This document shows positions 1-21,884 of a DNA stretch of 64,000 nucleotides, one piece after another. Position 1 is the first letter of the stretch. Each line of letters opens with the position of its first letter. Source of the DNA: Patescibacteria group bacterium. GTDB taxonomy: Bacteria > Patescibacteriota > Microgenomatia > UBA10105 > UBA927. The notes beneath the pieces are model-generated. The model was not told where the DNA came from, did not search any database, and saw only the letters and a list, made by a program, of their open reading frames with translations. The stretch covers positions 19,581 through 83,580 of the forward strand of contig JBMOPU010000012.1 of assembly GCA_049322955.1 (NCBI GenBank), in the 5' to 3' direction. The translations under genes and the position numbers were made by a program.

Positions 1-1064
1 ATGGTAGATCGTGAATGTAAAAAAATTTCAGTTAGTTGTTTGCCCTCAAGCTTCATATAGGTATCCAAAACACCCTTTAACAAATCTCTGGCAGCTGTTT
101 TTGTTAAATGAAATTGTTTATCATCTGGTGAATACCATGGCCCAAACTCACCCAAAAACACAACGCCGTCTCCCGTATTTAAGAACATTTGAGCTGCACA
201 ACACGCGGTATTACCTTCGCCTGTTAATCTAAAACAAATTCCTATATAACAAACACCTTCACGAGCACTTACAAGCTTCCATGGTTTACCTCCACATTTA
301 TAATATATGGTGGAATTCAAATTCCACATGCGATCAGACAATGGTGTTAAGCGCCTTTCACCAAAGGCGTAGTTATCGTCAGTTTTTAGTGTTGACTCGC
401 GTATTATTTGAATCGGAACATCATATTCCATTGCTCTTGCTTTTATTTGTCTTCTAAAATCAGGTGACATGAGATATTGGTTAGGATCATAGTTTTCAAT
501 TAAACCCAATTGACCGGATTTCCGCTTTGCTAATTCCTTTGGAGAGATTCTTGTTCCAATTGGATTAACTACGTGTGATTGAGTACGACAATTAAGCCAA
601 ACTTCATCGGGCACGACACAGATGACAACACCAATTTTTTCATCCATCTTTTTTAGCTTCTCTAGTCCCTCGAGGTACAAATCTACTACTTGAAATGCAC
701 GCTCACTTGCATTTCTTTGAATTGAGGCGGCGTGTAGATTTTTATCATCGATCTCATGTACATATACTGGTTTGGGCGAAAACTCCGAGTTAAATGCAGC
801 TTCAAAACCTGGGTAAGGGGGCCATATTTGTGTTCGGTCTTTTGGTGCGAGAACAGCTGGATTATTGATAATACTTACCCAATTTAAGTATTTTTGAATC
901 CCCATTTTTGTACCGATTGTTATATAAGAGATAGTTTTTGGGTGTGTACTAATATCAGAATCGTAAGGACCAAATAAGGATAATCCATCTCTCGGATCGA
1001 TCACTCTCTGACCGTATCGAAATTCTAATTCTGGTTCATCAAAAACTACTATTGGGTTACTCAT
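1..1064 (-). CDS. short prokaryotic Argonaute (MID-PIWI), predicted catalytically inactive; 3' end lies beyond window start
   Basis: Manual translation of minus strand from ATG at 1064..1062 is open through position 1, at least 354 aa; not in ORF track because there is no in-window stop. PIWI-type motif YYKCGGKPWKL (K-x-GG-x-x-W) is followed by GVCYIGICF, where the canonical GxDVxH aspartate is replaced. The start overlaps the stop of the upstream gene (ATGA). Confidence 0.6.
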   Translation of the reverse strand, partial: MSNPIVVFDEPELEFRYGQRVIDPRDGLSLFGPYDSDISTHPKTISYITIGTKMGIQKYLNWVSIINNPAVLAPKDRTQIWPPYPGFEAAFNSEFSPKPVYVHEIDDKNLHAASIQRNASERAFQVVDLYLEGLEKLKKMDEKIGVVICVVPDEVWLNCRTQSHVVNPIGTRISPKELAKRKSGQLGLIENYDPNQYLMSPDFRRQIKARAMEYDVPIQIIRESTLKTDDNYAFGERRLTPLSDRMWNLNSTIYYKCGGKPWKLVSAREGVCYIGICFRLTGEGNTACCAAQMFLNTGDGVVFLGEFGPWYSPDDKQFHLTKTAARDLLKGVLDTYMKLEGKQLTEIFLHSRST

Positions 1065-2839
1065 GCGTCATCTCCTTCTAAACTATCTACTTCAGTATCT
1101 TCTCTTTCAAAAGATTCAGGAGTCAAAGTTGTTTCATTAATTCCTTTGGGGGAGCTTAATATTATTGGCTCTGCGTCGATTATTATCGTGTCATCATCAT
1201 TCGTGCCTATTACTATTTTTTTATCCACTGCTAAAAACTCACATATTGCTAACAATCTTGTCAGCCATTCTCTATTCCACCAGTCTTTACATAAATCTTT
1301 TCGACGACCGTTAGCTTGATGGCCTGGAAGCGCATTTCCTACGATATCAGTAATATGAATCCTCGCTCTAACAAGGATTGTATAAGAATTAGCAATAGAT
1401 TTAGATATTGAAAACGTAGGCGCTAAATAGTATATGTATTGTTCTTTTGAAGCGCTCCTTCGGTATTTTCTTATACCAGAAGCGTTTATACGATTAATTT
1501 TTCCGCTCTGAGCTGTGTAGGTTAACGCATCGTTTTTAAGTAATCCTGAAGGAAAATAGACCATCCTTGCTGCTTTGTCATAGACAAGGCCTTTTTTTGA
1601 ACAATACACTTGAAGCGATTTACGTAATAATTCTGAAACTAAGTACGATGGATTAATTTCAAGTATTTTTTCTGTAGATGTCCATTCAATTTTTTCGATA
1701 TTAATATCATACTTTTGAACTAATTCAGATGGTGGATAGGAAAAACTCACCAATTTTTCACCAATAATCCTAAATGCCCAACTATCGAAATATTGAGTTA
1801 ACTCTTCATAATCAATTTTGGTTTTAGGGGAACTGACTAATAATTCTCCGGGTATTCTCTCAACTGTTAAGCAATTACTGATTAGCTGTTCCGTTTTATC
1901 TGTAATTACGCCCCTGTTCAAATAAAAGTTAGCGGCGATATTTTTGCCGTCCAATACAGACTTGGGAATTTTAAGAGATGTTAATTTTTTTAATAACTGG
2001 TCTAGCCCCTTTGCCCAATTCTCAAATGGAATCATGACAAGTTGGCTTGAAAAAGCATCTAGTTTATCTTGCGGCAGATTATCTTTCTTAAGAGGTATTA
2101 GAAATTCAATCTTCTGTTTTTTGCTAATATTCACAGCAAGAGACCGTTGTCTCACTATTTCAGCGTTACTCAGTGATTCCAATGAATATATTGATATTAC
2201 ACACGCCGCTTTAGAATCTATTGCCGTGTCGATATCGTCAGGATATTTCTCGCCACCTAAAAGCTTAAATCTTTCATACCAAACCGAATAACCCTCTGAA
2301 GTTAATTTGCGTACTAACCAATCAGCTAACGCTATATCACTTTTATCACAAGAAATTAATATGTTATTTTTTATCTTTTTGGTGGTGTCTATAAAAAAGT
2401 CATTTCTAAAAACCTGAGGATAATTGCCCTTGATTTCGGGATGTTGAGCATCAAGTAAATTTCTTAGCCGTTCTATGTCATAAATCTCCAAATCCCAGCC
2501 GTATTTCGATTTTATTATCATCTTTAATGAATCTCTCTCAGAAGCTGTAACATCTGAAGTAGTTACAAAAACATACTTCTCACACTTATGTCCATGTTTA
2601 ACAATTTTGTCTGCATCCTCAAATAGTTTCGCCTGCCAATCTTCTCTAACGCTATAAGAAAAAACTGTAGTCGTATTCTTTTTATCGACATGTACTGCAT
2701 CTCTACCTTTATCTTTAAATCCTCCTAATGGCTCTATTTCTGGATAACCGCTTACCGACAGCACATCGTCACAAAGACGCTCAAACTCAGCATAGTCAGT
2801 AAGTTCTTTTAAACAAAATGTGGTTAAGTTTGCACTCAT
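1061..2839 (-). CDS. Mrr-like nuclease-fold / TIR / APAZ-like multidomain protein (SPARTA TIR-APAZ partner)
   Basis: 592 aa. N-terminal segment FERLCDDVLSVSGYPEIEPLGGFKDKGRDAV resembles the Mrr restriction-endonuclease core. Central TIR-like block SCDKSDIALADWLVRKLTSEGYSVWYERFKLLGGEKYPDDIDTAIDSKAACVISIYSLESLSNAEIV. Long C-terminal region consistent with APAZ. TGA stop overlaps the pAgo ATG. Confidence 0.6.
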   Translation of the reverse strand: MSANLTTFCLKELTDYAEFERLCDDVLSVSGYPEIEPLGGFKDKGRDAVHVDKKNTTTVFSYSVREDWQAKLFEDADKIVKHGHKCEKYVFVTTSDVTASERDSLKMIIKSKYGWDLEIYDIERLRNLLDAQHPEIKGNYPQVFRNDFFIDTTKKIKNNILISCDKSDIALADWLVRKLTSEGYSVWYERFKLLGGEKYPDDIDTAIDSKAACVISIYSLESLSNAEIVRQRSLAVNISKKQKIEFLIPLKKDNLPQDKLDAFSSQLVMIPFENWAKGLDQLLKKLTSLKIPKSVLDGKNIAANFYLNRGVITDKTEQLISNCLTVERIPGELLVSSPKTKIDYEELTQYFDSWAFRIIGEKLVSFSYPPSELVQKYDINIEKIEWTSTEKILEINPSYLVSELLRKSLQVYCSKKGLVYDKAARMVYFPSGLLKNDALTYTAQSGKINRINASGIRKYRRSASKEQYIYYLAPTFSISKSIANSYTILVRARIHITDIVGNALPGHQANGRRKDLCKDWWNREWLTRLLAICEFLAVDKKIVIGTNDDDTIIIDAEPIILSSPKGINETTLTPESFEREDTEVDSLEGDDA

Positions 2840-2944
2840 TTAGTTACATTAACAATGCAGTTTGGTAAATCAGAATCTGCTGTTTGCAGTCTATAACTAT
2901 TGAAACTTTTGTCAACCTATTTAGTGTTCAATTAGGTTAGCCGG

Positions 2945-2953
2945 TGATATAAT
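2945..2953 (+). promoter_or_regulatory. extended -10 promoter element (TGaTATAAT)
   Basis: Sequence tgatataat at 2945-2953 in the divergent intergenic region between the SPARTA operon and the 3105 gene. Confidence 0.3.
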
Positions 2954-2954
2954 C

Positions 2955-3079
2955 ACTTCGAATCAGCCTAGAAGCTGTGCCGCGAGTAATCGCGGTGCTT
3001 TCATTGGATCTAATAAGGGGCAACCCAAACGGATCCAATGCTTCTAGGCTGAGGAATACGCGGGTTGTCCCTTTTTATT
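2955..3079 (+). ncRNA. candidate structured small RNA or cis-regulatory leader ending in a terminator-like hairpin
   Basis: Nested inverted repeats: cagcctagaagc ... gcttctaggctg; ccgcgagtaatcgcgg; cattggatc ... gatccaatg. A 10-bp stem ggggcaaccc / gggttgtccc (one G-U) at 3017-3071 is followed by tttttatt. Confidence 0.3.
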
Positions 3080-3104
3080 GTTTGACAACTCCAAAGGAGG
3101 ATAT

Positions 3105-3821
3105 ATGGATTCCATTCAGCCGGAGCAGACAAAACCAAATACCAGTCTGCTGAAAGTATTCTTGGCGGTTATTTTCTTTCCATTTACGATCAGCTATCTC
3201 ATTTGGAAACAAACACAATTTCCAACCCTCGTCCGTGTTCTCGGGATACTCATTTTCTGGGGAGTGTTTATAAAAATTGGATCATCAGGATCTAGTACGT
3301 CTAGTACAACAACGGGAAATAATAATACGGAGGTAGTTGCTACAAAAGCACCTACGCCTACAGTTGTAGTCATAACCCTAGAACAGAAACAAACAGATTT
3401 CAAAGAATTGTACAAAAAATATCAGTCGGGTGCACAAGGAATGCTCCTCGTACAGGTAGCCATTCAAAAGATAGCAAGTACAGCAACGAGCAAAGCGGAT
3501 TTGTATCTAGCACTGGATAAAGTTGAAAAAACTCAATCCGCGATAGCATCGGCAAACTCTGACATTAATACACCAAATTCTTTAAAAGAGTATAAACAAA
3601 TAAGTGAAGCACTCATGAATTTTCAAATTGCCGGAAATAACTTTACAGATGCGATAAAAAAGATGAAGGAATATGTGAATAAAGATGACCTTGAAAAACT
3701 GACCCAAGGAAAAGAGCAAATTGATCGTGGAACAGCAAGGCTCAGTGCGAGTAAAGATCTAATGGATGCGGTAGCTAAAACTTTAGAAGTAGATGTAACC
3801 CAAATACAAGGAACAAAATAA
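3105..3821 (+). CDS. hypothetical membrane-anchored protein (N-terminal TM helix, Ser/Thr-rich linker, helical C-domain)
   Basis: ORF with AAGGAGG RBS 6 nt upstream of ATG at 3105; the ORF-track start at 3078 is a TTG. One predicted TM segment (LLKVFLAVIFFPFTISYLIW). Confidence 0.5.
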   Translation: MDSIQPEQTKPNTSLLKVFLAVIFFPFTISYLIWKQTQFPTLVRVLGILIFWGVFIKIGSSGSSTSSTTTGNNNTEVVATKAPTPTVVVITLEQKQTDFKELYKKYQSGAQGMLLVQVAIQKIASTATSKADLYLALDKVEKTQSAIASANSDINTPNSLKEYKQISEALMNFQIAGNNFTDAIKKMKEYVNKDDLEKLTQGKEQIDRGTARLSASKDLMDAVAKTLEVDVTQIQGTK

Positions 3822-3840
3822 ATAGATTAATCCAAAATGT

Positions 3841-3893
3841 TGTCATTACTGTCATAATGTCATTCTTGTGTTCCGGCATGAAGCGTTTGTCAT
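3841..3893. repeat. tandem TGTCAT motif cluster (operator-like)
   Basis: tgtcattac tgtcataa tgtcattc at 3841-3863, plus a further tgtcat at 3888. Confidence 0.4.
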
Positions 3894-4391
3894 TTCCCCC
3901 TTACCCCCATGGGTATTCAAGCAGTTGATTGATATGTATTCAATCTTTGCTTTAGGATGGATTTTCCAACATTGGCTTCTTATACGTTCCGTATATGTGA
4001 GCTGAAATCGTCTTTCACCGTTTGTTGATCTTCGGTGTTCCCTTGGCTTACGAATTCTTTTAAGTTGTCATTGCCTGCCACCACACGTGGACTTTAGACT
4101 ATTTTAACTGGTAGTCGGAGAGATTTTTCAAAAACTATCATTTTCATCTAGAGCTAAGAGATAGCCTAAGCCGTATTCAGGGTCACCGCCTTTTGAATAC
4201 AAAATCTGATCTCGAGGTCACGAGACCATTCATTCTGAAGCTATTTTGCATAGGATATATAATCTACCATCCTTAGTAAAACAAAGACTCGAGTGTCATC
4301 AGGGAGACCTGAGCATATGTCCTCAGCCATAAGTAACGGTAGCCAAAAACGCTATTACTAAAAATTACTCGGGAGAAATTCAGACTTACGT

Positions 4392-4509
4392 GGATAGTTG
4401 AGCGTCTTGTCCATGAAAAAAATAGGATTGGGGTGGTTGTAGGCAACGGATACAAGATGTATCCACTTCAAAGCTAAGTTATCCGTGTCACTGGATACAA
4501 AACTTATCC
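4392..4509. repeat. iteron-like array of GGATAC / TTATCC half-sites in alternating orientation
   Basis: ggatag 4392, ggataca 4448, gtatcca 4460, ttatcc 4480, ggataca 4494, ttatcc 4504. tgtatccac resembles a DnaA-box variant. Confidence 0.35.
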
Positions 4510-4545
4510 AAGCATTATTTGCTGAATAGTTCCATCATAATGAAA

Positions 4546-5049
4546 TTAGGGTCTTATGTTATTCCATTTATCCTCATAGGATCCGGCCATTGGCACGTTG
4601 AAATTATACTCCTCATAAAAAAGCCCAAGACGGAAAGTGCGTACCGTGCTTTCTTTTGTTGCGCCTTTTGTTTCCATCCATGCTTTATGTTCATAGTACA
4701 AATACTGCGTTACGACATTGTTTGGAACGATAAAATATCGATATTTATATGTTGATTTATCAAAATGAACAAACACATAAAAATAGCTATCATCAGTTCG
4801 ATCCTCATCTTTCTTACTTAATATCCATGTTAGGCATTTGCCGAATATTTTGGAGTTTAATATACCTGCATCGGTATACATGATTGATACCGTAGAAACG
4901 GTTCCTTGTGTGCCACGGACCACCATTGTGATTCTACTACCATTTGTTGGTTTTATTTCAGTCGAATAACCATGAAAGAAAAATTGCTCAATGATATTAA
5001 ATAGCCCTATTTTCCTATCCGGATCGAAATTGTGAATTTTTGTCCTCAT
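4546..5049 (-). CDS. hypothetical protein (island cargo)
   Basis: 167-aa ORF in the AT-rich island; no recognisable motif. Confidence 0.45.
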   Translation of the reverse strand: MRTKIHNFDPDRKIGLFNIIEQFFFHGYSTEIKPTNGSRITMVVRGTQGTVSTVSIMYTDAGILNSKIFGKCLTWILSKKDEDRTDDSYFYVFVHFDKSTYKYRYFIVPNNVVTQYLYYEHKAWMETKGATKESTVRTFRLGLFYEEYNFNVPMAGSYEDKWNNIRP

Positions 5050-5066
5050 ACCATATATAGATTACA

Positions 5067-6224
5067 TTAATTACTGCGTTTCATCAGTATTCGAAATATC
5101 CACAAGTTTTTCTTTCTGTCAAACTGCCATTCTACATTGTCCTTAATTCTATGCTTTGGTTCAATAATCGTGCTTCGAATGTTGGTTACCGTTTCACCGA
5201 TTTTTGTAACTACCTCGATTTCTTCTTTGTTTACGAGTTTATAACTTTCGCATATCTGTTTTATTGTGTAGCGACCAGTATTATCCTTTTTCCACAAATC
5301 CCAAAACGCTTCAAACATTTTTCTACTTTTGTCAGCTCGTGAGAAATCAAATTGGTCAGTTGATCCATCAGTAAGCCTAAATATCAATTGTGAATTTTCA
5401 TACGTATATGATCTATCAGTTGGCGTCACAAAAAGACTTCGAGTGCTTGATAATTTAAATCGTTCCCTGATGGTTTCGTTTGATAATGAATTCGTCTCTT
5501 TGAGCGCTATCGTCACACTATAGTTATATTTATTATCCTTATATTCAATCTCTAAGTCATACACGTCTATTACCCGAGCAATCCACAACGTCATGACCAT
5601 TTCCATAAATTTATAATCCGTATATTCTTCGTTCACAAAACTATATTTTTCTTTTAATAATCCCATCAGATCTTTTGGAGATATTAATAGGTACTTCGGG
5701 TTATAAATCCGTAATACTTTATCCATATATTCCCTGAATATATCCAAATGCGTATTGAAATTAATATCTCGACCATTGCCAACAAGTTCATCATCCACAA
5801 ATAACGATATATATTGATTGATAATCGATTCAAGATGCTTTGCCTGAGTTTTGGTGTTACTGAGCGTTATTGTCAACGGAATTTGATCAACATTTTCACT
5901 CTTGATATCGTTTTTGGATTTTAAATACTTCGAAAAAGAACTGAATAAGTCCTTATAGCACTCGATTTTATCTGCCTCTTTTAACGGTCTGATAATCTCA
6001 CGCCTTCTCACTACTGTGCTTATGCTTGCGATATCCCAAAGAATGCTTAAGCTGTTATTGCTTTTTCGATTAAACACGGTCGTATCCACAAAAGAAGAAA
6101 AATTTGGATAACTACTTCGAGGTAGCTCAATATTGTCCAATCTATTTTTGGTCTTGAGCAAGGTTTCCAACGTCAAATAGAGTTGATTTGGATGAAAAAA
6201 GTGATGCAAGTGCATTGACCTCAT
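5067..6224 (-). CDS. hypothetical protein (island cargo)
   Basis: 385-aa ORF 18 nt upstream of the 167-aa ORF on the same strand; no recognisable motif. Confidence 0.45.
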   Translation of the reverse strand: MRSMHLHHFFHPNQLYLTLETLLKTKNRLDNIELPRSSYPNFSSFVDTTVFNRKSNNSLSILWDIASISTVVRRREIIRPLKEADKIECYKDLFSSFSKYLKSKNDIKSENVDQIPLTITLSNTKTQAKHLESIINQYISLFVDDELVGNGRDINFNTHLDIFREYMDKVLRIYNPKYLLISPKDLMGLLKEKYSFVNEEYTDYKFMEMVMTLWIARVIDVYDLEIEYKDNKYNYSVTIALKETNSLSNETIRERFKLSSTRSLFVTPTDRSYTYENSQLIFRLTDGSTDQFDFSRADKSRKMFEAFWDLWKKDNTGRYTIKQICESYKLVNKEEIEVVTKIGETVTNIRSTIIEPKHRIKDNVEWQFDRKKNLWIFRILMKRSN

Positions 6225-6272
6225 TATATTTCCTCGATCCCTTAATCACAAATCTATCGCTCATTTCTATTT

Positions 6273-6350
6273 ATGACGTCATAAACGATGTCATACGGCT
6301 TATTATGACAGCCTTCCGCACAAACTGCCCCATTGACTTCCCGATGTCAT
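6273..6350. promoter_or_regulatory. TGTCAT / palindromic ATGACGTCAT motif cluster in divergent promoter region
   Basis: atgacgtcat (6272-6281), gatgtcatac (6287-), atgaca (6305-), gatgtcataa (6343-). A ttgact -35-like hexamer follows before the 6400 ATG. Confidence 0.4.
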
Positions 6351-6399
6351 AAAAAATTACTTGACTTAGTACAAACATTTATTTCAAGAAAGGGAAAAT

Positions 6400-6738
6400 A
6401 TGAAAAATATTAGAGGCACATTTAAAGCAACTTTAATTAGCTTCAATTCCGTTGAAGTAAAAAGTGCTTATGTTGGAGAACATGGTTTTATAGAAGCTTA
6501 TTGGTTTGAACTTAATCTTAGAGATGGTTTCACCAAAATACTCCCATATATTCTTGACTACACATATGAGCTTTGGGAAGCAAAAAACGAATATTGGACA
6601 TTGACCCAACCTCTTAGATCATACAAAAACTCTTCTGATAAGGAACTCATTGGAACTACCTGCAGGGTTTCAGCAATTACAGACGATGAGGGTTTTCCCA
6701 TCTCTATCGACTTCATTTTATCAAAAAATAATAAATAA
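6400..6738 (+). CDS. hypothetical protein
   Basis: 112-aa ORF downstream of a ttgact / AT-rich promoter-like region. Confidence 0.45.
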   Translation: MKNIRGTFKATLISFNSVEVKSAYVGEHGFIEAYWFELNLRDGFTKILPYILDYTYELWEAKNEYWTLTQPLRSYKNSSDKELIGTTCRVSAITDDEGFPISIDFILSKNNK

Positions 6739-6763
6739 AAAATTTTTCTTGAAAGGAAAACAT

Positions 6764-8572
6764 ATGAACAATATAACTACAGAACAATATTTAAAAATTG
6801 CCAAATCTTATCTCGATTTTGGGTTCTCAATAATACCAATTGGAGCAGATAAAAAACCATTGATTAAATGGACTGAATATCAAAAACGACAAGCAACTGA
6901 TAATGAGGTGCAACAATGGATTACGTTTCCCAATCTGAATGGATTTGCGGTAGTGACTGGTCAAATATCAAACGTGTTTGTTTTAGATTGCGATGCTGGG
7001 TATAAACTGGACGATTTTGACCTTCCTCCGACACCCATGGTCAAAACCGGATCAGGTATCCATATCTATTTCCGCTATCCGAAGGCGTATCGGATAACAA
7101 ACACAACACAACTTCTTCCTCATGTCGACATCAGAGGAGAGGGTGGTTACGCCATACTCCCTCCCTCCCTCCATTCTTCTGGCGTTCGATATGAGTGGAT
7201 CAATAATCTTTCCACTCCTATAGTCGAAGCGCCGGAATGGTTACTAAAGCTTATAAAAGACAAAGCGAATGATGATAATTCAAATCCTCCTATTGCAGAA
7301 ATTGCTCAAGGCGTAGGAGAGGGTGGCAGAAATGATAGTGCCACTCGAATCATTGGCACTCTGCTAGCATACCAACCAGCAGAACATTGGCGAACAGTTA
7401 TATGGCCACTTATTCACACATGGAATACCAACAATCACCCTCCACTTTCTGGGTCAGAACTTGCTAACACATTTAAATCCATCGAGAAGCGTGAGTTAAC
7501 CAAAAGAAACAATCCGTCACTCAGTCAGAACATATATAGTCATGACCAAGTGACTGATACTCAATTTGAGTGTGTCGCTTTTTCAGAACTGATGGATAGG
7601 CACTTTAGTGACGATATCTGGACTGTTGATCATTTAATTCTTGAAAATGGCATCAACTGCATTGCAGGAAAACCCAAAAGTGGAAAGAGCTTTGTTGTCC
7701 TCCAAATGGCAAAGAATATTGCCGAGGGAAAACCTGTATTTGGAAAATACAAAACCAAGCAATCAAACATTCTCCTCATCACAAAGGAAGACAGCCTGCG
7801 TTTGCTTAAAATGCGGTTGGTTAATTTTGGTTCAAACAAAGATTTACCAATTTCATTCTCCATAGATTCAGATATTTATCTGGACAATAATCAATATCTG
7901 AACTCAATTCTTCAGAAATGTCGTGATCTTGACACTAAAATAGTCATTTTTGATAGCTTTCGCAGATTCATGCGAGGAGACGAAAACAGCTCTGCAGACG
8001 TTTCAAAACTTCACTGGTTTTTTAAACATCTGAATGACGCTGGAATAACCGTCATTTTCAATCACCATTTCAGAAAAGGGAATGTAGTATCCACGGACTC
8101 CTTCCGCGGATCATCCGATATTCACGCCATGGTAGATACCGCCATGGTGCTGGAATTAGATAAAGAACTCAACATCATTCAAGTCACACAAAATGCGTGC
8201 CGGGAAGCAGAGGAACAAAAACCATTTTCAATATCTATTCCAAAGTTTATAGATACTGACAGGGAATTCAAAATCGTTAACGCCTGTATTCAAATACAAA
8301 AAAGCGCTCATGATCAGGCAATTGAAGATGTTCTTAATTTTCTCCAAAAACAAAGCGAGCCAATCAATCAAAAAATGATTATTGAGGCATTGGTAAATCC
8401 AAATAGTCCATATAAAGGTACTTACGTCAAAAAAGCACTTGAAAGGCTTGCGGGTGTTGGCCGTGTCATTGCTCGTAAACAAGGAAATAAAACCTTTTAC
8501 TCACTTTCTGAGCATCAGTCACTCAGTCAAACCAGTAATGGTGATGACGAAGTGACGGATGAAATCATATGA
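6764..8572 (+). CDS. bifunctional primase-polymerase (prim-pol) N-domain fused to P-loop (RecA/DnaB-like, AAA_25-type) helicase/replication ATPase
   Basis: Prim-pol motifs: FSIIPIGADKKPLIKW, VVTGQISNVFVLDCD, KTGSGIHIYF, DIRGEGGYAILPPS. Walker A GKPKSGKSF and Walker B IVIFDSF. Start chosen at ATG 6764 with aaagga RBS; the ORF-track start overlaps the upstream ORF. Confidence 0.7.
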   Translation: MNNITTEQYLKIAKSYLDFGFSIIPIGADKKPLIKWTEYQKRQATDNEVQQWITFPNLNGFAVVTGQISNVFVLDCDAGYKLDDFDLPPTPMVKTGSGIHIYFRYPKAYRITNTTQLLPHVDIRGEGGYAILPPSLHSSGVRYEWINNLSTPIVEAPEWLLKLIKDKANDDNSNPPIAEIAQGVGEGGRNDSATRIIGTLLAYQPAEHWRTVIWPLIHTWNTNNHPPLSGSELANTFKSIEKRELTKRNNPSLSQNIYSHDQVTDTQFECVAFSELMDRHFSDDIWTVDHLILENGINCIAGKPKSGKSFVVLQMAKNIAEGKPVFGKYKTKQSNILLITKEDSLRLLKMRLVNFGSNKDLPISFSIDSDIYLDNNQYLNSILQKCRDLDTKIVIFDSFRRFMRGDENSSADVSKLHWFFKHLNDAGITVIFNHHFRKGNVVSTDSFRGSSDIHAMVDTAMVLELDKELNIIQVTQNACREAEEQKPFSISIPKFIDTDREFKIVNACIQIQKSAHDQAIEDVLNFLQKQSEPINQKMIIEALVNPNSPYKGTYVKKALERLAGVGRVIARKQGNKTFYSLSEHQSLSQTSNGDDEVTDEII

Positions 8573-8808
8573 GACTTAGTTTAAAAGCGATCTCAGAGTT
8601 TAAACAAATTTATAAAAACCAATTTGGTGTTGACCTAACCGAAGACGAAGCTAATACCAAAGGCTTGGAGTTACTGGGATTTTTCCAATACCTTTCTAAG
8701 CCAATACCCAAAGAAAATGAGCTGTATTTTCTTTCGCTTAGTGTTGAAAACGGAGCGTCTAATCGAGCTATGTACAATATCAAACAAACTGATAATAATA
8801 GACTATAG
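8569..8808 (+). CDS. hypothetical protein (translationally coupled, ATGA overlap)
   Basis: 79-aa ORF whose ATG overlaps the upstream TGA. Confidence 0.4.
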   Translation: MRLSLKAISEFKQIYKNQFGVDLTEDEANTKGLELLGFFQYLSKPIPKENELYFLSLSVENGASNRAMYNIKQTDNNRL

Positions 8809-8844
8809 GACTATGGTAATGAGCATCTATATTCAAAATCAAAT

Positions 8845-9120
8845 ATGAACCATGACATCAACTATTTTATATACTGCTCTCCTCATCAATCATTTTCAAA
8901 ACAGGAATCTGATCTGATTACATTTGCTGAAAAGGAAGAATTGAATGTCGTGGGTATATATTTTGGAACTTTTAGATCAATGCTTTTCCGTATTCAAAAA
9001 AGTGAGGCACAAGGCGTCATAGTCTCTGATATTACCGACCTACCAATTACACCATTATTTACTTCGCTTATATCAAAAAATCTCATTCGAGATATCAAAT
9101 ATCTAACTCAGTCCAAATAA
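8845..9120 (+). CDS. hypothetical small protein
   Basis: 91-aa ORF immediately upstream of the recombinase. Confidence 0.35.
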   Translation: MNHDINYFIYCSPHQSFSKQESDLITFAEKEELNVVGIYFGTFRSMLFRIQKSEAQGVIVSDITDLPITPLFTSLISKNLIRDIKYLTQSK

Positions 9121-9124
9121 TCGT

Positions 9125-10963
9125 ATGAATACGGATGCCACGAAACCAATCAAATATATTATGTACTGCCGAAAAAGCAGTGAGGGTGATGATAGACAAG
9201 CAGCCTCTCTTCCTGCGCAGAAAAGAGAACTTATTGACCTGCAAGAAAAAGAAAACCTAAAAGTCATCAAAGTAATAGAAGAAGCTCAGTCCGCATACCA
9301 CAAAGGTAGGCCACAATTTAGTCAGATGATCAATGATGTCCGAACTGGTAAAGCAAACGGTATTCTCGTTTGGAGCTTAAACAGAGTTACCAGAAATACC
9401 AATGACCACAACCTGATTGTAGAACTAATGAATGATGGATGTTTACGACGCATAACTACACCAAACAAATCCTACAACAATAATGCTGATGATATAGTGG
9501 CTATGGAAATGGATTTTATAAACTCAAAATGGTATTCAGCTAAGTTAAGCGAGGTCGTTAGACGAGGTAATAGACAAAAATTTTTAGTAAAGAAAGAATG
9601 GTCTGGATTAGCTAAACCAGGATATAAAAACGAATTTGACCAACAATTAAGAAAAAACATACTTGTTGTAGATGAAGAACGATTTCAATTGCTCCGAAAG
9701 GCGGCATTACTCATAATTAATGGTACACATACCGCTGGACAAGCCTTACACACCCTAAATGAGAAGTGGGGCTTTAAAACAAGATATATAAAAGTAAATG
9801 GTGGCAAGAAATTCTCAAGAACTTCTTTTTATGCATTCTTAAGCGACACCTATTATTATGGTCTTATGAAAAGAAAATTTGACGGTAGAGATTATACCGT
9901 TATGGGCGAACACAAACCAATGTTTACTGAGGAAGAATTTGATTTACTTCAAATCAGGCTCGGAAAAAAGGGGCTGCCACACCAATCCAAGCATGACTTT
10001 CCGTACAAAAGCGCTCTAAAATGTGGTGGATGCGGTGGATCAGTGACCGCTCAGGAGAAGTGGCAAGTAATCTGTCCTGACTGCAAGTTAAAGTTCCATA
10101 AAGGAAGATTAACCAATTCGTGCCCACAATGCAGCATCAAAATTGAGGACATGATCAAACCAAAGGTGCTTCATTATATATATTATGGCTGTGTCAAAAA
10201 AGTCCACCCAGAATGCACCGAGAAGCATATCAGGGTTGAAAATATCGAAAAAACCATAGATGAAGAACTCAAGAAATTTGAAATACCCAAAGAATTCACC
10301 CTTTGGGCCATAAAGTATCTCCAAGAGGTCAATACAGTGACCGAGAATGATCAAAGTGAGCGTCTGAAATATTTACACAAACAACAGGTGGCATGTCTTG
10401 CCCAAATTCAAAACTTAGTCAATCTCAAAACCAGATCGGACAATGTGGATGGCTCTATCCTCTCAGACGACGAATTTGTAGCTCAAAAGAAAAAACTGAA
10501 CACGGAGGCAGAAAGTATAACCTCGCAGATCAAACATGCGGATACTCAGGTGAATAATTGGGTATATTTGACGGAAGAAACCTTTAAATTTGCTTGCTTC
10601 GCAAGATACTGGTTTACCAAGGGTGATATCAAAACCAAGACCTATATTTTAAGCAAACTCGGTAATAACCTATTGATAAAAGACGGAAAACTATTGGTAG
10701 ATCAATCTAAAGCATTCTTTTTGATACAATCAGGTTATGACTCTGTAAAGAGTTTGGCCAATAAGTTGGAACCTAACTTGGAGGTTATCACACCAACCCA
10801 AATGCTCTCTCTCGAACCTGTTTGTAAACTATGGCGGAGGAGACAGGACTCGAACCTGCGTGGGATTGCTCCCGCGCGCTTTCCAAGCGCGTGCCGTAGC
10901 CGCTGGGCCACTCCTCCAAGGAAATTTATTATACCATCTTTGGCGCTTATCACGGTGCTATAA
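9125..10963 (+). CDS. large serine recombinase (phage-integrase type)
   Basis: N-terminal resolvase catalytic motif YCRKSSEGDDRQAASLPAQ. Cys-rich zinc-ribbon region CGGCGGSVTAQEKWQVICPDCKLKF...CPQC. Coiled-coil C-terminal part. The ORF's last ~45 codons read through the tRNA-Ser gene. Confidence 0.75.
   Translation: MNTDATKPIKYIMYCRKSSEGDDRQAASLPAQKRELIDLQEKENLKVIKVIEEAQSAYHKGRPQFSQMINDVRTGKANGILVWSLNRVTRNTNDHNLIVELMNDGCLRRITTPNKSYNNNADDIVAMEMDFINSKWYSAKLSEVVRRGNRQKFLVKKEWSGLAKPGYKNEFDQQLRKNILVVDEERFQLLRKAALLIINGTHTAGQALHTLNEKWGFKTRYIKVNGGKKFSRTSFYAFLSDTYYYGLMKRKFDGRDYTVMGEHKPMFTEEEFDLLQIRLGKKGLPHQSKHDFPYKSALKCGGCGGSVTAQEKWQVICPDCKLKFHKGRLTNSCPQCSIKIEDMIKPKVLHYIYYGCVKKVHPECTEKHIRVENIEKTIDEELKKFEIPKEFTLWAIKYLQEVNTVTENDQSERLKYLHKQQVACLAQIQNLVNLKTRSDNVDGSILSDDEFVAQKKKLNTEAESITSQIKHADTQVNNWVYLTEETFKFACFARYWFTKGDIKTKTYILSKLGNNLLIKDGKLLVDQSKAFFLIQSGYDSVKSLANKLEPNLEVITPTQMLSLEPVCKLWRRRQDSNLRGIAPARFPSACRSRWATPPRKFIIPSLALITVL
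10832..10917 (-). tRNA. tRNA-Ser (anticodon GGA)
   Basis: Manual fold of reverse complement. GGAGGAG acceptor, class-II long variable arm, anticodon loop TTGGAAA, T-arm GGTTCGAGTCC, encoded CCA. Confidence 0.85.
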
Positions 10964-10964
10964 T
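10956..10964 (+). promoter_or_regulatory. extended -10 (TGcTATAAT) giving a leaderless transcript for the EamA gene
   Basis: tgctataat ends 6 nt before ATG 10971. Confidence 0.35.
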
Positions 10965-10970
10965 CACCAC

Positions 10971-11870
10971 ATGAGCGTACGAAGAAAGGCGTTTTTGGGG
11001 CTAATACTTGTTTCGATATTGTGGGGAACGGCAGGTGTTACGGCCAAAATGCTAATTACCGAGCTCCATCCTTACGTGCTCCTGTTCTACCGATTCGGAC
11101 TTGCCTCCCTTATTTTTCTTCCCTGGTTTTTGCGGGCACACAAACCGGCGAATATGTGGCGGACACTTATTCCGTTTAGCCTATTAAGTATAGGAAATGC
11201 GCTGTTTTTTTATCTCGGCATTGTGCACACCTCCGCAAGCGCGGCCTCCGTTATCAATACCAGTACGCCGCTCCTTACGGCGCTTTTTTCTCATTTCCTG
11301 ATAGGCGAACGGACGCACAAAGAGAAAATATTGGGGGTAATCGTCGGACTTATCGGCACACTCATCATCATTCTTCTCCCGCTTTGGAATGAAGGCCGGA
11401 GTATCGGCGGAAGCATCACCGGAAATCTTCTTATTTTACTTTCCGTCGTCAGCTGGACACTGTACCTGGTAGGATCCCGTAAATTTATTTCGCAGGAAAC
11501 TTTTTCTCCCGTGGTGATGACGGAAATAAACTTTCTCACCCTGACGTTTTTTAGTCTGATAATGGCGATCGCAACCGGGCAATCGTTTGTTACCGATGCG
11601 CTCTACACTCCCTCGTATTTCTTCCTGTTACTGTATGCCGCAATCCCTGTTACCGTCGTCACGTTCGGAATATTCCAATGGGTCATTAAGCATATTTCCG
11701 CAACCACTGCGTCGCTCAAAGATTACATTCAGCTGGTTATTAGTGTCGGATTGTCTATCCTTATCCTGGGTGAACGATTGAACGCGATTTTTATTTTCGG
11801 AAGCGGTATTGTGGTTTTCGGCCTTATCCTTGCCTCACACAAGGCTATTTTGCGAATTCTTCGTGGATAG
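10971..11870 (+). CDS. EamA/DMT-superfamily transporter
   Basis: Ten-TM profile with duplicated EamA-like halves. The ORF-track N-terminal extension through the tRNA was rejected. Confidence 0.65.
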   Translation: MSVRRKAFLGLILVSILWGTAGVTAKMLITELHPYVLLFYRFGLASLIFLPWFLRAHKPANMWRTLIPFSLLSIGNALFFYLGIVHTSASAASVINTSTPLLTALFSHFLIGERTHKEKILGVIVGLIGTLIIILLPLWNEGRSIGGSITGNLLILLSVVSWTLYLVGSRKFISQETFSPVVMTEINFLTLTFFSLIMAIATGQSFVTDALYTPSYFFLLLYAAIPVTVVTFGIFQWVIKHISATTASLKDYIQLVISVGLSILILGERLNAIFIFGSGIVVFGLILASHKAILRILRG

Positions 11871-12441
11871 CATCGCGAATATCTTTCCACCAGTCTTGAG
11901 AATCGGTATCCGCAAGCGCGCGCATGAGGGCAACTGATTCGGGAAGGCGAACGCGGAGTGAGTTCGCATCCATCCATTCCTTTGCATGGGAATTGCCTTT
12001 TTCCATGAGGATACGGCACTCGACACCGAAGGCGATAACATTGGCCTCATAGACGATCTGTGCCTCAAGCGTTTGCTTTTCCTCATATTCGTTCAAGGTA
12101 GCAAGAAGCGCATCATCCACTCCCTGAAAAATATCCGCGTTGGCCTTATCTTCATGGCGCGTCATATAGCGCTTTGCCATTTTATCCATCTCACCAGTGC
12201 GCCCCTCATGAAAATCATGAAAGATACTCATGATGAGCACCTTTTCCATCGAGACCATTCGTTGGGAATCACCAGAAGCGTTTATTTCTTTTGCCAAAAA
12301 GTACGCAATGACGGCGGTCATAAATGAATGTTCGCCTACTCCCTCTTCATTGTCTCCCAATCGTTGCCATCCGGTACGGAGCATCCGCTTCACATTGGCG
12401 GCTTCGTAGATAAGATTGGTCAGTCTTTTTTGATCATCCAT
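11845..12441 (-). CDS. HD-domain phosphohydrolase (YfbR-like 5'-deoxynucleotidase family)
   Basis: Motifs RTGWQRLG, EHSFMTAVIA, HDFHE. Start set at MDDQKRL (ATG 12441..12439). Confidence 0.6.
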   Translation of the reverse strand: MDDQKRLTNLIYEAANVKRMLRTGWQRLGDNEEGVGEHSFMTAVIAYFLAKEINASGDSQRMVSMEKVLIMSIFHDFHEGRTGEMDKMAKRYMTRHEDKANADIFQGVDDALLATLNEYEEKQTLEAQIVYEANVIAFGVECRILMEKGNSHAKEWMDANSLRVRLPESVALMRALADTDSQDWWKDIRDAIHEEFAK

Positions 12442-15162: not shown

Positions 15163-15252
15163 TGGCGGAAGGAGCGAGATTTGAACTCGCGTGGGCCTTT
15201 CGACCCCCAAGGTTTTCGAGACCTGGCCGTTTAGCCGCTCCGGCATCCTTCC
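15163..15252 (-). tRNA. tRNA-Ser (anticodon CGA)
   Basis: Manual fold: acceptor GGAAGGA, class-II variable arm, loop CTCGAAA, T-loop TTCAAAT, encoded CCA. Confidence 0.85.
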
Positions 15253-17416: not shown

Positions 17417-17436
17417 CGTTACATATATTTATGTTG

Positions 17437-17519
17437 CGGAGAGGGCGGGACTCGAACCCACGAGACCTTGCGGTCGGCGGTTTAGTAAACCGCTGCAATA
17501 GCCACTATGCGACCTCTCC
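17437..17519 (-). tRNA. class-II (Ser-type) tRNA whose anticodon reads ACU; CCA not encoded
   Basis: Manual fold: acceptor GGAGAGG/CCTCTCC, 3-bp D-stem, anticodon stem-loop GCGGT-TTACTAA-ACCGC, long variable arm, T-loop TTCGAGT. Differs from the tRNA-Ser(GCU) at 19464 by A instead of G at position 34. Confidence 0.55.
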
Positions 17520-19446: not shown

Positions 19447-19463
19447 TTGGGAAAACACCACTG

Positions 19464-19549
19464 CGGAGAGTATGGGAGTCGAACCCATTGACGAACTTAC
19501 GCTCGTCACGGTTTAGCAAACCGTTCCCTTACCGTCCGGGCCACTCTCC
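19464..19549 (-). tRNA. tRNA-Ser (anticodon GCU); CCA not encoded
   Basis: Manual fold: acceptor GGAGAGT, loop TTGCTAA, long variable arm, T-loop TTCGACT. Confidence 0.8.
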
Positions 19550-20938: not shown

Positions 20939-21026
20939 AATAAAGCCTCCTCATACCATTGTACAAGGAGGCAACATTGCTTGCCCTATCTCGTCCCGTC
21001 GAAGTGGGACGGACGCGAATGGGTGG

Positions 21027-21439
21027 AGATGCCGGGTAATGAGCCCGGGTCCGAAGGAATACATCAAAAACTTCTACAAGCGTAGTCCGTTTGGTTCTTT
21101 TCTCGGGAAAAAGCGGACAAATACCAGAGAAAAGGGTTGATCGAAATTATACTCCGGCTGTTCCCGATCATGAACAGCCTGACGGCCTGGCTTTGTTTAC
21201 ACCCTGATACCCTCACCAGACAAAAGAATATTCAGGATGGATCTTACGCAGTTGCGAAGGCGTATGCCCGCGCTTGCATGGATCGCTTAAGGGCAAGTCG
21301 TTCTACTAAGTAGGCGTACTTTTCCTCAAGCTCGCTAAGAGTGTTAGCAATTATAAATTGACAAGAGTTTTTACGGCTCTTTTGTCGTCGCCGGCTTGCT
21401 GTTTTTTAATGTGCTCGCATCGTCGATGCATGCATCCCC
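21027..21439 (-). ncRNA. ssrA: putative tmRNA (ssrA)
   Basis: Begins 1 nt after the smpB stop with GGGGAUGCAUGCAUCGACGAUGCG (tmRNA-type GGGG-N8-AUCGAC start). 3' end has T-arm-like CCGGG-CUCAUUA-CCCGG, then CAUCUCC complementary to GGGGAUG, then ACC. Tag ORF not confidently resolved. Confidence 0.45.
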
Positions 21440-21440
21440 G

Positions 21441-21884
21441 TTAATCTACCTTCCCCCGGAAGTCCCGTTCAAGCTCGCGCTTCTGTGCTTCCCTCCTCAT
21501 TTTTTCCCGTTTTTCGTATTGTTTTTTGCCGCGCGCAAGGCCGATTTCGAGCTTCACCAGAGGACCCTTAGTATACCAGCTTAAGGGAACCAGGGTCAAA
21601 TTGGCGCCGTCGATCTTGCTTTTTATGGATATAAGCTCGTTTTTATGCAGTAACAACTTGCGCGTGCGCTTCGGGTCATACTCTTCGGGGCGGGCATAGA
21701 TATAGGGAAATATTTGCGCGTTAATAAGATATGCCGCCGTACCTAAAATCTTCACAAACGAGCCGTCAAGTTTTGCGTGTCCCGCACGAAGCGACTTTAC
21801 CTCTGCGCCACTCAAAACAATCCCCGCCTCAAAACGATCAAGGATTTCATAGTCATACGTGGCTTTTTTGTTGACCAGCTTCAT
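21441..21884 (-). CDS. smpB: SsrA-binding protein SmpB
   Basis: 147 aa, KTRKLLLHKNELISIK... family pattern. Confidence 0.85.
   Translation of the reverse strand: MKLVNKKATYDYEILDRFEAGIVLSGAEVKSLRAGHAKLDGSFVKILGTAAYLINAQIFPYIYARPEEYDPKRTRKLLLHKNELISIKSKIDGANLTLVPLSWYTKGPLVKLEIGLARGKKQYEKREKMRREAQKRELERDFRGKVD

What the first reader, a model, noticed from the sequence alone, without database searches (positions are those of the whole stretch)
1..2839. SPARTA-like Mrr-TIR-APAZ plus dead short pAgo operon, partly off the window edge
The 592-aa protein shows an Mrr-like nuclease core (GGFKDKGRDAV), a clear TIR-like block and a long C-terminal extension. Its TGA overlaps (ATGA) the ATG of an unlisted downstream ORF that I translated by hand, open to position 1. 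That ORF has the PIWI K-x-GG-x-x-W motif (YYKCGGKPWKL) and a GICF sequence where the catalytic GxDVxH aspartate normally sits. This architecture matches short pAgo / TIR-APAZ (SPARTA) NAD-depleting abortive-infection systems, here in the Mrr-fused variant and on an AT-rich mobile island. The pAgo gene is invisible to the ORF track, so it is easy to miss.
Basis: partly seen in the sequence, partly recalled or inferred. Interest (0 to 1): 0.8.

Follow-up and report, generated by a model that had tools for sequence, protein, structure and literature searches.

The report
Argonaute defence operon, nuclease-TIR partner
This is a real two-gene bacterial Argonaute defence operon of an already catalogued type on a mobile island in a tiny-genome bacterium, but its TIR domain lacks the residue needed to destroy NAD+, so it probably kills through its fused nuclease-like domain instead.

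The parts
1061..2839 (-). Gene 1: Mrr-like/TIR/APAZ protein, 592 aa plus stop (identical to NCBI MFZ5534603.1)
   Evidence: ORF. PADLOC Aga_REase-TIR-PNTD1-PNTD2 E 3.3e-75 over aa 7-586. Exact match P0124. AF2 model pLDDT 83.6. Best PDB fold matches are SPARTA TIR-APAZ chains, E 2e-26.
2450..2812 (-). Mrr-like PD-(D/E)xK-fold domain (aa 10-130). Near-invariant E20, E36, D43-K44-G-R46-D47, F60-x-Y62-S63-V64-R65-E66, W68, K71, D75, H84, C86. No canonical (E/Q)xK on beta3.
1970..2365 (-). TIR domain (aa 159-290)
   Evidence: Pfam TIR_2 2.6e-13, aa 160-283. Aligned to the TIR of Map, Crt and Bab TIR-APAZ.
2147..2149 (-). Codon CAA = Gln231, at the position of the TIR catalytic Glu (MapTIR-APAZ E77), flanked by Arg230 and Arg232
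   Evidence: Read. phmmer alignment. Profile alignment to 8qlo, 8u7b and 8fex. MAFFT columns: Q116/H3/L1/E0 of 120. Fused against unfused counts.
1145..1942 (-). APAZ (N-L1-L2-like) domain, aa about 300-565
   Evidence: Aligned to the APAZ part of SPARTA TIR-APAZ chains through aa about 573. Foldseek also matches the APAZ of SPARHA, SPARDA, SPARSA and AfAgo-N.
1064..1144 (-). Acidic, disordered C-terminal tail (aa 566-592, ...PESFEREDTEVDSLEGDDA)
   Evidence: pLDDT below 50 for aa 579-592. It resembles the autoinhibitory C-terminal tail of SPARTA TIR-APAZ described in PMC10899771. The functional equivalence is inferred.
1..1064 (-). Gene 2, 5' part: short pAgo (MID-PIWI), aa 1-354 of 497. The ATG at 1064..1062 overlaps gene 1's TGA. 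The remaining 143 codons lie left of the window.
   Evidence: Translation. PADLOC pAgo_I 1.1e-106. CrtAgo 8ifk_B 1.2e-58. 100% identical over 354 aa to P0121 = NCBI MFZ5534602.1, 497 aa. The full length aligns 5-497 to 4-507 of CrtAgo/MapAgo, E about 1e-93. DNA continuation seen in L002 and L005.
435..461 (-). MID 5'-phosphate pocket motif D-F-R204-R-Q-I-K208-A-R (SPARTA Agos have F-H-D-Q-L-K-A-R); Q219 and K256 follow downstream
   Evidence: Invariant in pAgo family alignment A1. Aligned to CrtAgo and MapAgo. The assignment of pocket residues rests on general Argonaute knowledge.
231..305 (-). PIWI motifs YYKCGGKPWKL (273-305) and G-I-C277-F (231-242), where active Argonautes have the first catalytic Asp
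   Evidence: Aligned to CrtAgo YYKAGGKPWKL and LGLVY.
2888..2915 (-). Best sigma-70-like promoter match upstream of gene 1 (TTGACA-16-TAGACT, 10 of 12)
   Evidence: The number of such sites in the region is no higher than in shuffles, so this is only a candidate.
6650..8572 (+). Island context: Prim-Pol / PriCT_1 / AAA_25 replication protein
   Evidence: Pfam 4.8e-27, 6.7e-10 and 3.7e-21.
9125..10963 (+). Island context: large serine recombinase (Resolvase + Recombinase + Zn ribbon). The ORF's 3' end runs into the tRNA gene.
   Evidence: Pfam Resolvase 6.9e-17. ORF.
10832..10917 (-). tRNA-Ser(GGA), right border / integration site of the AT-rich island
   Evidence: ARAGORN. Rfam 51.9 bits. GC step. 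Same arrangement in relative L003.

Best explanation
This is a two-gene short-Argonaute defence operon of the SPARTA clade (S2A), in its Mrr-TIR-APAZ subclade. It is carried on a roughly 11-kb or larger AT-rich integrative island in a Patescibacteria genome. By homology to solved SPARTA complexes (inferred), the 497-aa MID-PIWI Argonaute and the APAZ part of the 592-aa protein form a heterodimer. That heterodimer binds a 5'-phosphorylated guide RNA in the MID pocket and recognises complementary invader DNA. Target binding displaces the acidic C-terminal tail and drives Ago-Ago and TIR-TIR oligomerisation. This system departs from characterised SPARTA in one respect shown here at sequence level: its TIR has Gln231 where the NADase catalytic Glu sits, as do nearly all Mrr-fused relatives. 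Purifying selection is now concentrated on the N-terminal Mrr-like domain. The most likely mechanism (inferred) is therefore that the TIR serves mainly as an assembly scaffold. Oligomerisation would bring the Mrr-type PD-(D/E)xK domains together into an active nuclease. Indiscriminate or local DNA cleavage, not NAD+ depletion, would then stop the invader or kill the cell. This is the logic seen in SPARDA, SPARHA and Avs4.
Against: No activity was measured. The Mrr-like domain lacks the canonical (E/Q)xK on beta3. It has S63-V64-R65 in the gap-free register, or V64-R65-E66 in the hhalign register. Its catalytic competence is therefore itself an inference from conservation. An acidic residue one helical turn upstream of Q231 (E/D227) is conserved specifically in the fused clade: 30 of 33 fused, against Asn in 89 of 103 unfused. 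It might rescue NADase chemistry, or it may only be a helix N-cap. I could not superpose coordinates to decide. The representative set was chosen by similarity to this protein, so sampling is biased. The literature library is incomplete, and a study of this subclade may exist outside it.
Confidence: 0.55

Rival explanations
1. Classical SPARTA. Target recognition unleashes TIR NADase activity and the cell dies of NAD(P)+ depletion. The Mrr-like domain is an accessory, for example for DNA binding.
For: Clade membership and overall TIR-APAZ and Ago homology to NADase SPARTA. TIR fold retained with good pLDDT. A conserved acidic residue E/D227 lies four residues before Q231 on the same helix and could in principle substitute. 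R232 and A235 next to the site are conserved in both fused and unfused proteins.
Against: The canonical catalytic Glu is absent here and in 32 of 33 Mrr-fused proteins. In deeper branches that position varies (Q, R, T, L, I), which is not the behaviour of a catalytic residue. TIR conservation falls from 55% to 33% once Mrr is fused. E77A alone kills SPARTA NADase. N225-P226-E227 sits at the start of helix alphaC (H226-242) and looks like a structural capping motif.
Confidence: 0.22
2. Dual-effector system: both a non-canonical TIR NADase and the Mrr-like nuclease fire on activation.
For: Both domains are retained in hundreds of intact homologues. Both contain clade-specific conserved polar residues.
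Against: The same evidence as against the NADase reading. No known TIR NADase works without the Glu.
Confidence: 0.1
3. A decaying or inert remnant: both effector domains are catalytically dead, or the Ago is truncated.
For: Both canonical catalytic motifs are missing. One metagenome scaffold (L001) carries a pAgo whose last 40 codons are replaced by unrelated DNA.
Against: The genome matching the window has an intact 497-aa Ago. The family has over 200 full-length members with very strong purifying selection on the Mrr-like domain: 58% mean identity and many invariant residues. The ORFs are tightly coupled and free of frameshifts.
Confidence: 0.05

Closest known systems
SPARTA (short pAgo / TIR-APAZ, clade S2A): MapSPARTA, CrtSPARTA, BabSPARTA (PDB 8fex, 8ifk, 8qlo)
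   Same: Two-gene operon in the order effector-APAZ then Ago. The Ago aligns end to end (E about 1e-93), including the MID pocket, the KxGGKPW motif and the C-terminal FK(Y/F)YI. The TIR-APAZ part aligns over about 410 residues (profile E 1e-37 to 1e-39) and is the top structural match. Both have an acidic C-terminal tail.
   Different: This protein has an extra 155-aa N-terminal Mrr-like domain. The TIR catalytic Glu77 is Gln231. The first MID pocket residue is Arg, not His. TIR conservation is much lower than in unfused SPARTA.
Mrr-TIR-APAZ subclade of SPARTA (named in Koopal et al. 2022, PMC9097488; PADLOC model PDLC02416 Aga_REase-TIR-PNTD1-PNTD2)
   Same: Exactly this architecture. The window protein matches the PADLOC model over its full length (E 3.3e-75) and is 41-79% identical to more than 100 such proteins.
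   Different: Nothing structural: it is a member. I found no experimental study of this subclade in the searchable library; only two papers hold the term.
SPARDA (DREN/DUF4365-APAZ), SPARHA (HNH-APAZ) and SPARMA (Mrr/SMEK-APAZ) short-pAgo nuclease systems
   Same: A short dead pAgo plus an APAZ protein carrying an N-terminal nuclease domain that is activated by target-induced oligomer or filament assembly. Their APAZ domains are structural matches (9om4, 9qcc, 9vx6).
   Different: They belong to another APAZ clade (S2B). They have no TIR between nuclease and APAZ. Their nuclease domains have canonical active sites.
Mrr-type effector or cleavage domains: Avs4 N-terminal nuclease, MspJI/AspBHI, LlaBIII, FokI
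   Different: Only 8-16% identity. This family replaces the (D/E/Q)xK motif on beta3.

Membership tests
SPARTA clade S2A short-pAgo system | Short pAgo with MID and PIWI only (no N or PAZ domains), about 500 aa | tested here: met
   The full-length protein P0121 is 497 aa, is 100% identical to the 354 aa encoded in the window, and aligns 5-497 to 4-507 of CrtAgo/MapAgo. PADLOC pAgo_I scores 1.1e-106.
SPARTA clade S2A short-pAgo system | PIWI lacks the DEDX catalytic tetrad | tested here: met
   The motif positions are recalled from human Ago2 (GADVTH, YRDGVS, PAYYAHLVA). At those positions the protein has G-I-C277-F, H-S-R352-S-T and N-Y-N-A459-C, with no Asp, Glu or His within one residue either side. 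The corresponding stretches in nuclease-dead CrtAgo and MapAgo are equally non-acidic. No direct alignment to an active Ago was made.
SPARTA clade S2A short-pAgo system | MID domain 5'-phosphate binding pocket conserved | tested here: met
   R204, K208, Q219 and K256 are invariant in family alignment A1 and align with H, K, Q and K of the Crt and Map Agos. The first residue is Arg, not His.
SPARTA clade S2A short-pAgo system | Partner protein with an APAZ domain encoded immediately upstream in the same operon | tested here: met
   ATGA overlap. APAZ aligned to SPARTA TIR-APAZ through aa about 573. Foldseek E 2e-26. Same gene pair in L003 and L004.
SPARTA clade S2A short-pAgo system | TIR domain fused N-terminally to APAZ | tested here: met
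   Pfam TIR_2 2.6e-13, aa 160-283.
SPARTA as a functional class (NAD(P)ase abortive infection) | TIR catalytic glutamate (E77 in the Map and Crt TIR-APAZ proteins) required for NADase activity | tested here: not met
   Gln231 occupies this position in three independent alignments. The column is 0 of 120 Glu in close relatives and 1 of 33 Glu in Mrr-fused proteins, against about 99 of 103 in unfused ones.
SPARTA as a functional class (NAD(P)ase abortive infection) | Guide-RNA- and target-DNA-dependent NAD+ hydrolysis and tetramerisation | not testable with these tools
   This needs biochemistry. The Ago C-terminal K494-F495 (equivalent to K504/Y505, needed for activation in MapSPARTA) is present in P0121.
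Mrr-TIR-APAZ subclade (PADLOC PDLC02416) | N-terminal restriction-endonuclease-like (Mrr) domain preceding TIR-APAZ | tested here: met
Mrr / PD-(D/E)xK nucleases | Catalytic D ... (D/E/Q)xK motif (Asp at the start of beta2, (D/E/Q)xK on beta3) | tested here: inconclusive
   D47 aligns with the Mrr catalytic Asp (G-D-G-G-I-D against K-D-K-G-R-D). Mrr's Q-A-K aligns with V64-R65-E66 (hhalign) or with S63-V64-R65 (gap-free register). There is no Lys at that site. Other invariant charged residues (E20, E36, D43, K44, K71, D75, H84) could form a rearranged site.

The most novel reading that the evidence does not exclude
Within the SPARTA clade, the Mrr-fused branch has undergone an effector swap. 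The ancestral TIR NADase lost its catalytic Glu and survives only as a target-triggered oligomerisation scaffold. A fused, non-canonical Mrr-type domain (D47 ... S63-V64-R65-E66, K71) became the killing module. If so, 'Mrr-TIR-APAZ SPARTA' systems are really guide-programmed nucleases and not NADases. This would be an example of a catalytic immune TIR being exapted as a purely structural assembly domain in bacteria.
Probability: 0.45. Interest if true: 0.6.

Novelty: new member of a known kind. Interest (0 to 1): 0.45.

Why it matters
The locus itself is ordinary for the field. The architecture was named in 2022, has a PADLOC model, and the two proteins are already deposited in NCBI. Two things give it some value. 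First, the whole Mrr-TIR-APAZ subclade is filed under SPARTA and is therefore assumed to deplete NAD+. The comparative evidence here argues otherwise: the Glu is lost in 32 of 33 fused proteins but kept in about 99 of 103 unfused ones, and constraint has moved onto the nuclease-like domain. A simple experiment could test this (NAD+ against DNA damage, with point mutants). The result would matter for defence-system annotation and for SPARTA-based nucleic-acid detection tools. Second, this is a complete-looking Argonaute defence system on a serine-recombinase island in a Patescibacteria (CPR) genome of about 1 Mb.

Tried and rejected
1. 'The pAgo is 3'-truncated or pseudogenised.' Scaffold L001 (99.99% identical to the window) gives a 472-aa Ago whose last 40 conserved codons are replaced by unrelated DNA. 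I held this view until I found that L002 and L005 (both 100% identical to the window) and NCBI MFZ5534602.1 (P0121) continue with the canonical C-terminus. I rejected it for the window's genome. The L001 junction is either an assembly chimera or a strain variant.
2. Host identification by DNA: megablast of window 1-12000 against E. coli genomes found nothing. The GTDB representative scan with the 592-aa protein found no relative. The host was identified instead from the exact-sequence cluster look-up.
3. Recovering DNA left of the pAgo, to reach the third ORF and the left island border: three contig look-ups and one metagenome scan gave nothing longer than 71 nt past the stop.
5. An att-type direct repeat search on the island of relative L003 gave only short chance repeats.
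6. Pfam Piwi and NCBIfam do not recognise the Ago. This is uninformative, since short pAgos are too divergent for those models.
7. I tried to retrieve the Avs4 paper to read its catalytic motif, but it is not held.
8. The promoter scan shows no enrichment over shuffles.
Full report
1. WHAT IS IN THE SEQUENCE

The minus strand of window 1..2839 holds an ORF at 2839..1061 encoding 592 aa. Its TGA (1063..1061) overlaps an ATG at 1064..1062. From that ATG the frame stays open for 354 codons down to window position 1. All the quoted motifs are present. The region lies in a block of GC 0.36-0.38 (1..10000) set against about 0.50 for the rest of the window.

2. WHAT THE TWO PROTEINS ARE

The 592-aa protein matches:
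- Pfam TIR_2 (aa 160-283, 2.6e-13) and Mrr_cat (aa 15-106, 5.7e-5), both above their gathering cut-offs.
- The PADLOC model Aga_REase-TIR-PNTD1-PNTD2 over its whole length (3.3e-75).

The 354-aa fragment matches PADLOC pAgo_I (1.1e-106) at profile positions 4-350 of 493.

Against solved structures:
- The first protein hits only the SPARTA TIR-APAZ subunits, at 1e-14 as a single sequence and 1e-37 to 1e-39 as a family profile.
- The fragment hits the SPARTA Argonautes CrtAgo, MapAgo and BabAgo at about 1e-58.

3. COMPLETING THE ARGONAUTE, AND A FALSE LEAD

The exact 592-aa protein occurs on metagenome contigs L001 and L002. L001 extends 477 nt beyond the window. It gave a 472-aa Ago that loses homology to all relatives right after ...GLTKLNY. 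The invariant 40-residue C-terminus was replaced by 15 unrelated residues, with a sharp DNA breakpoint. I first read this as a truncated gene.

Comparing the two contigs showed otherwise. L002 is 100% identical to the window and continues with the canonical NACKLGDSGPVT. The cluster look-up then found the answer:
- The 592-aa protein is NCBI MFZ5534603.1 ([quoted passage not shown], contig of 990,597 bp).
- The adjacent accession MFZ5534602.1 (P0121, "argonaute/piwi family protein") is 497 aa. It is 100% identical to the 354 aa in the window and ends in ...RKPQFKFYI.
- Contig L005 (100% identical over 2,597 nt) confirms this at DNA level.

So the Ago in this genome is intact. The L001 junction is a chimera or a strain variant. 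P0121 aligns end to end with CrtAgo and MapAgo (5-497 against 4-507, E about 1e-93). That alignment includes the C-terminal K-(Y/F) pair whose mutation abolishes MapSPARTA activation (PMC10899771).

The MID pocket residues R204, K208, Q219 and K256 are invariant in the family. SPARTA Agos have His at the first of these positions. At the positions of the PIWI catalytic residues (located from the human Ago2 motifs, from memory) the protein has C277, R352 and A459. This is consistent with the literature statement that all short pAgos lack the DEDX tetrad (PMC9097488).

4. CONTEXT

The island carries:
- three genes with no recognisable family (a 247-aa ORF, called as 238 aa on the contigs, plus 167 aa and 385 aa);
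- a further 112-aa ORF;
- a Prim-Pol/PriCT/AAA_25 replication protein (6650-8572);
- a large serine recombinase (9125-10963), whose ORF runs into tRNA-Ser(GGA) at 10832-10917.

Host-like genes follow (EamA, an HD phosphohydrolase, and so on). The closest relative is L003, with an Ago 91% and an Mrr-TIR-APAZ 79% identical. It has the same tRNA-Ser/recombinase/EamA/HD junction and the same defence operon, but a different middle module. The element is therefore mosaic. No other PADLOC system was found on the island.

5. THE TIR ACTIVE SITE

In MapSPARTA and CrtSPARTA, Glu77 of TIR-APAZ is the catalytic residue. E77A abolishes NADase activity and toxicity (PMC9097488; PMC10899771). Here it is replaced by Gln231.
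- In the pairwise alignment, E77 (GVLK-E-LAVA) pairs with Gln231 (EIVR-Q-RSLAV).
- A 40-sequence family profile aligns the same column to E77 of three different solved SPARTA proteins.
- A MAFFT alignment of 120 relatives plus three SPARTA TIRs places it in a gap-free block. The column is Q116/H3/L1/E0 in the family and E/E/E in SPARTA.

To see whether this tracks with the Mrr fusion, I searched the 50%-identity representative library with the TIR-APAZ part only. That gave 1007 hits, 225 of them below 1e-30. I aligned 139 of the 150 best-scoring representatives with the window protein and the MapSPARTA TIR domain, 141 rows in all.
- Of 103 unfused proteins (about 450 aa), 98-99 have Glu.
- Of 33 true Mrr fusions, 1 has Glu. 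The rest are Q14, R14, T2, L1, I1.
- Two other N-terminal fusions were excluded: an IrrE/M78-like one that keeps Glu, and a PNP_UDP_1 one with Arg.
- Pfam confirms Mrr_cat in the distant fused members.

Conservation within the proteins tells the same story:
- Unfused proteins: TIR 55% mean pairwise identity, APAZ 26%. The TIR is the best-conserved part.
- Fused proteins: Mrr-like 58%, TIR 33%, APAZ 36%. The TIR falls to APAZ level and the Mrr-like domain is the best conserved.

One caveat remains. An acidic residue four positions upstream (E/D227) is conserved specifically in the fused clade. It lies at the N-terminus of helix alphaC. It may be a capping residue, but a relocated catalytic carboxylate cannot be excluded without a superposition.

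6. THE MRR-LIKE DOMAIN

The fold and the first catalytic Asp are conserved: D47, in K-D-K-G-R-D against Mrr's G-D-G-G-I-D. The (E/Q)xK of beta3 is not. Mrr's Q-A-K falls on V64-R65-E66 in hhalign, or on S63-V64-R65 without gaps. Nevertheless the following residues are invariant or nearly so, across both the 120 close relatives and the deeper representatives: E20, E36, D43, K44, R46, D47, Y62, S63, R65, E66, W68, K71, D75, H84 and C86. This is what one expects of a working, rearranged site. Variant PD-(D/E)xK sites of the Cfr10I or BamHI type are a precedent (from general knowledge). Activity remains an inference.

7. MECHANISM AND STANDING

What is shown:
- the architecture, clade membership and operon coupling;
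- an intact Ago with a MID pocket and no tetrad;
- loss of the TIR Glu, correlated with the Mrr fusion;
- a shift of constraint onto the Mrr-like domain;
- a mobile-island location.

What is inferred:
- guide-RNA and target-DNA sensing and oligomerisation as in SPARTA;
- the TIR acting as a scaffold;
- the Mrr-like domain acting as the effector nuclease once brought together, by analogy with SPARDA, SPARHA, Avs4 and FokI.

The classical NADase reading keeps perhaps 0.2 probability.

8. NOVELTY

Koopal et al. 2022 already describe "one subclade of SPARTA systems [in which] a putative ... [quoted passage not shown] PADLOC has a model for it, and the proteins are in NCBI. In the searchable library only two papers use the term Mrr-TIR-APAZ. 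Neither studies it or comments on its TIR active site. The locus is thus a new member of a known kind. The subclade-wide loss of the NADase residue is a testable point that I did not find reported.

Noticed in passing
L001 8241 (about 307 nt left of window position 1): Metagenome scaffold L001 (99.99% identical to the window) replaces the last 40 conserved codons of the pAgo with unrelated DNA, giving a 472-aa product (P0123). L002, L005 and NCBI P0121 carry the intact gene. This is either an assembly chimera or a real strain variant with a disabled Argonaute.
   Followed up: yes
L005 3024-3098 (about 430 nt left of window position 1): An ORF (MMPETQKDAPGLYGTHFKDLLPFE...) starts with an ATG that overlaps the pAgo stop codon (ATATGATG), suggesting a translationally coupled third gene. 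It runs off the contig. It is absent from the nearest relative L003, which has a DUF1508 gene 189 nt downstream instead.
   Followed up: partly
window 9125-10963 and 10832-10917: The ORF of the large serine recombinase reads through into the antisense of tRNA-Ser(GGA), marking the island/host junction. The same junction occurs in relative L003. The middle of the island differs between the two (Prim-Pol module against unknown genes), so the element is mosaic.
   Followed up: partly
window 17436-17519 (-): A tRNA-Ser with anticodon ACT (A at position 34, anticodon loop TTACTAA) sits close to a conventional tRNA-Ser(GCT) at 19463-19549. In all, five tRNA-Ser and two tRNA-Arg (CCG, GCG) genes lie within 10.8-19.5 kb. 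An A34 Ser tRNA is unusual for bacteria.
   Followed up: partly
window 21021-21439 (-): Rfam finds a tmRNA (103.7 bits) that ARAGORN missed, directly next to smpB (21441-21884). Conversely, the tRNA-Ser(CGA) called by ARAGORN at 15163-15252 did not reach Rfam's gathering score.
   Followed up: no
window 3078-3821 (+), 4546-5049 (-), 5067-6224 (-), 6400-6738 (+): Four island ORFs (247, 167, 385 and 112 aa) have no significant Pfam or PADLOC family. The 385- and 167-aa genes lie head to tail just beside the defence operon and are conserved on all contigs that carry it.
   Followed up: partly
proteins P0352 and P0378: Other N-terminal fusions exist on TIR-APAZ proteins. One is an IrrE/Peptidase_M78-like domain (TIR Glu kept). 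The other is a PNP_UDP_1 nucleoside-phosphorylase domain (TIR Glu replaced by Arg). The second may be another case of effector replacement.
   Followed up: no
window about 7776-7800: Two independent metagenome contigs (L001, L002) both end inside the Prim-Pol gene within 25 nt of each other. This hints at strain heterogeneity or a repeat at that point.
   Followed up: no
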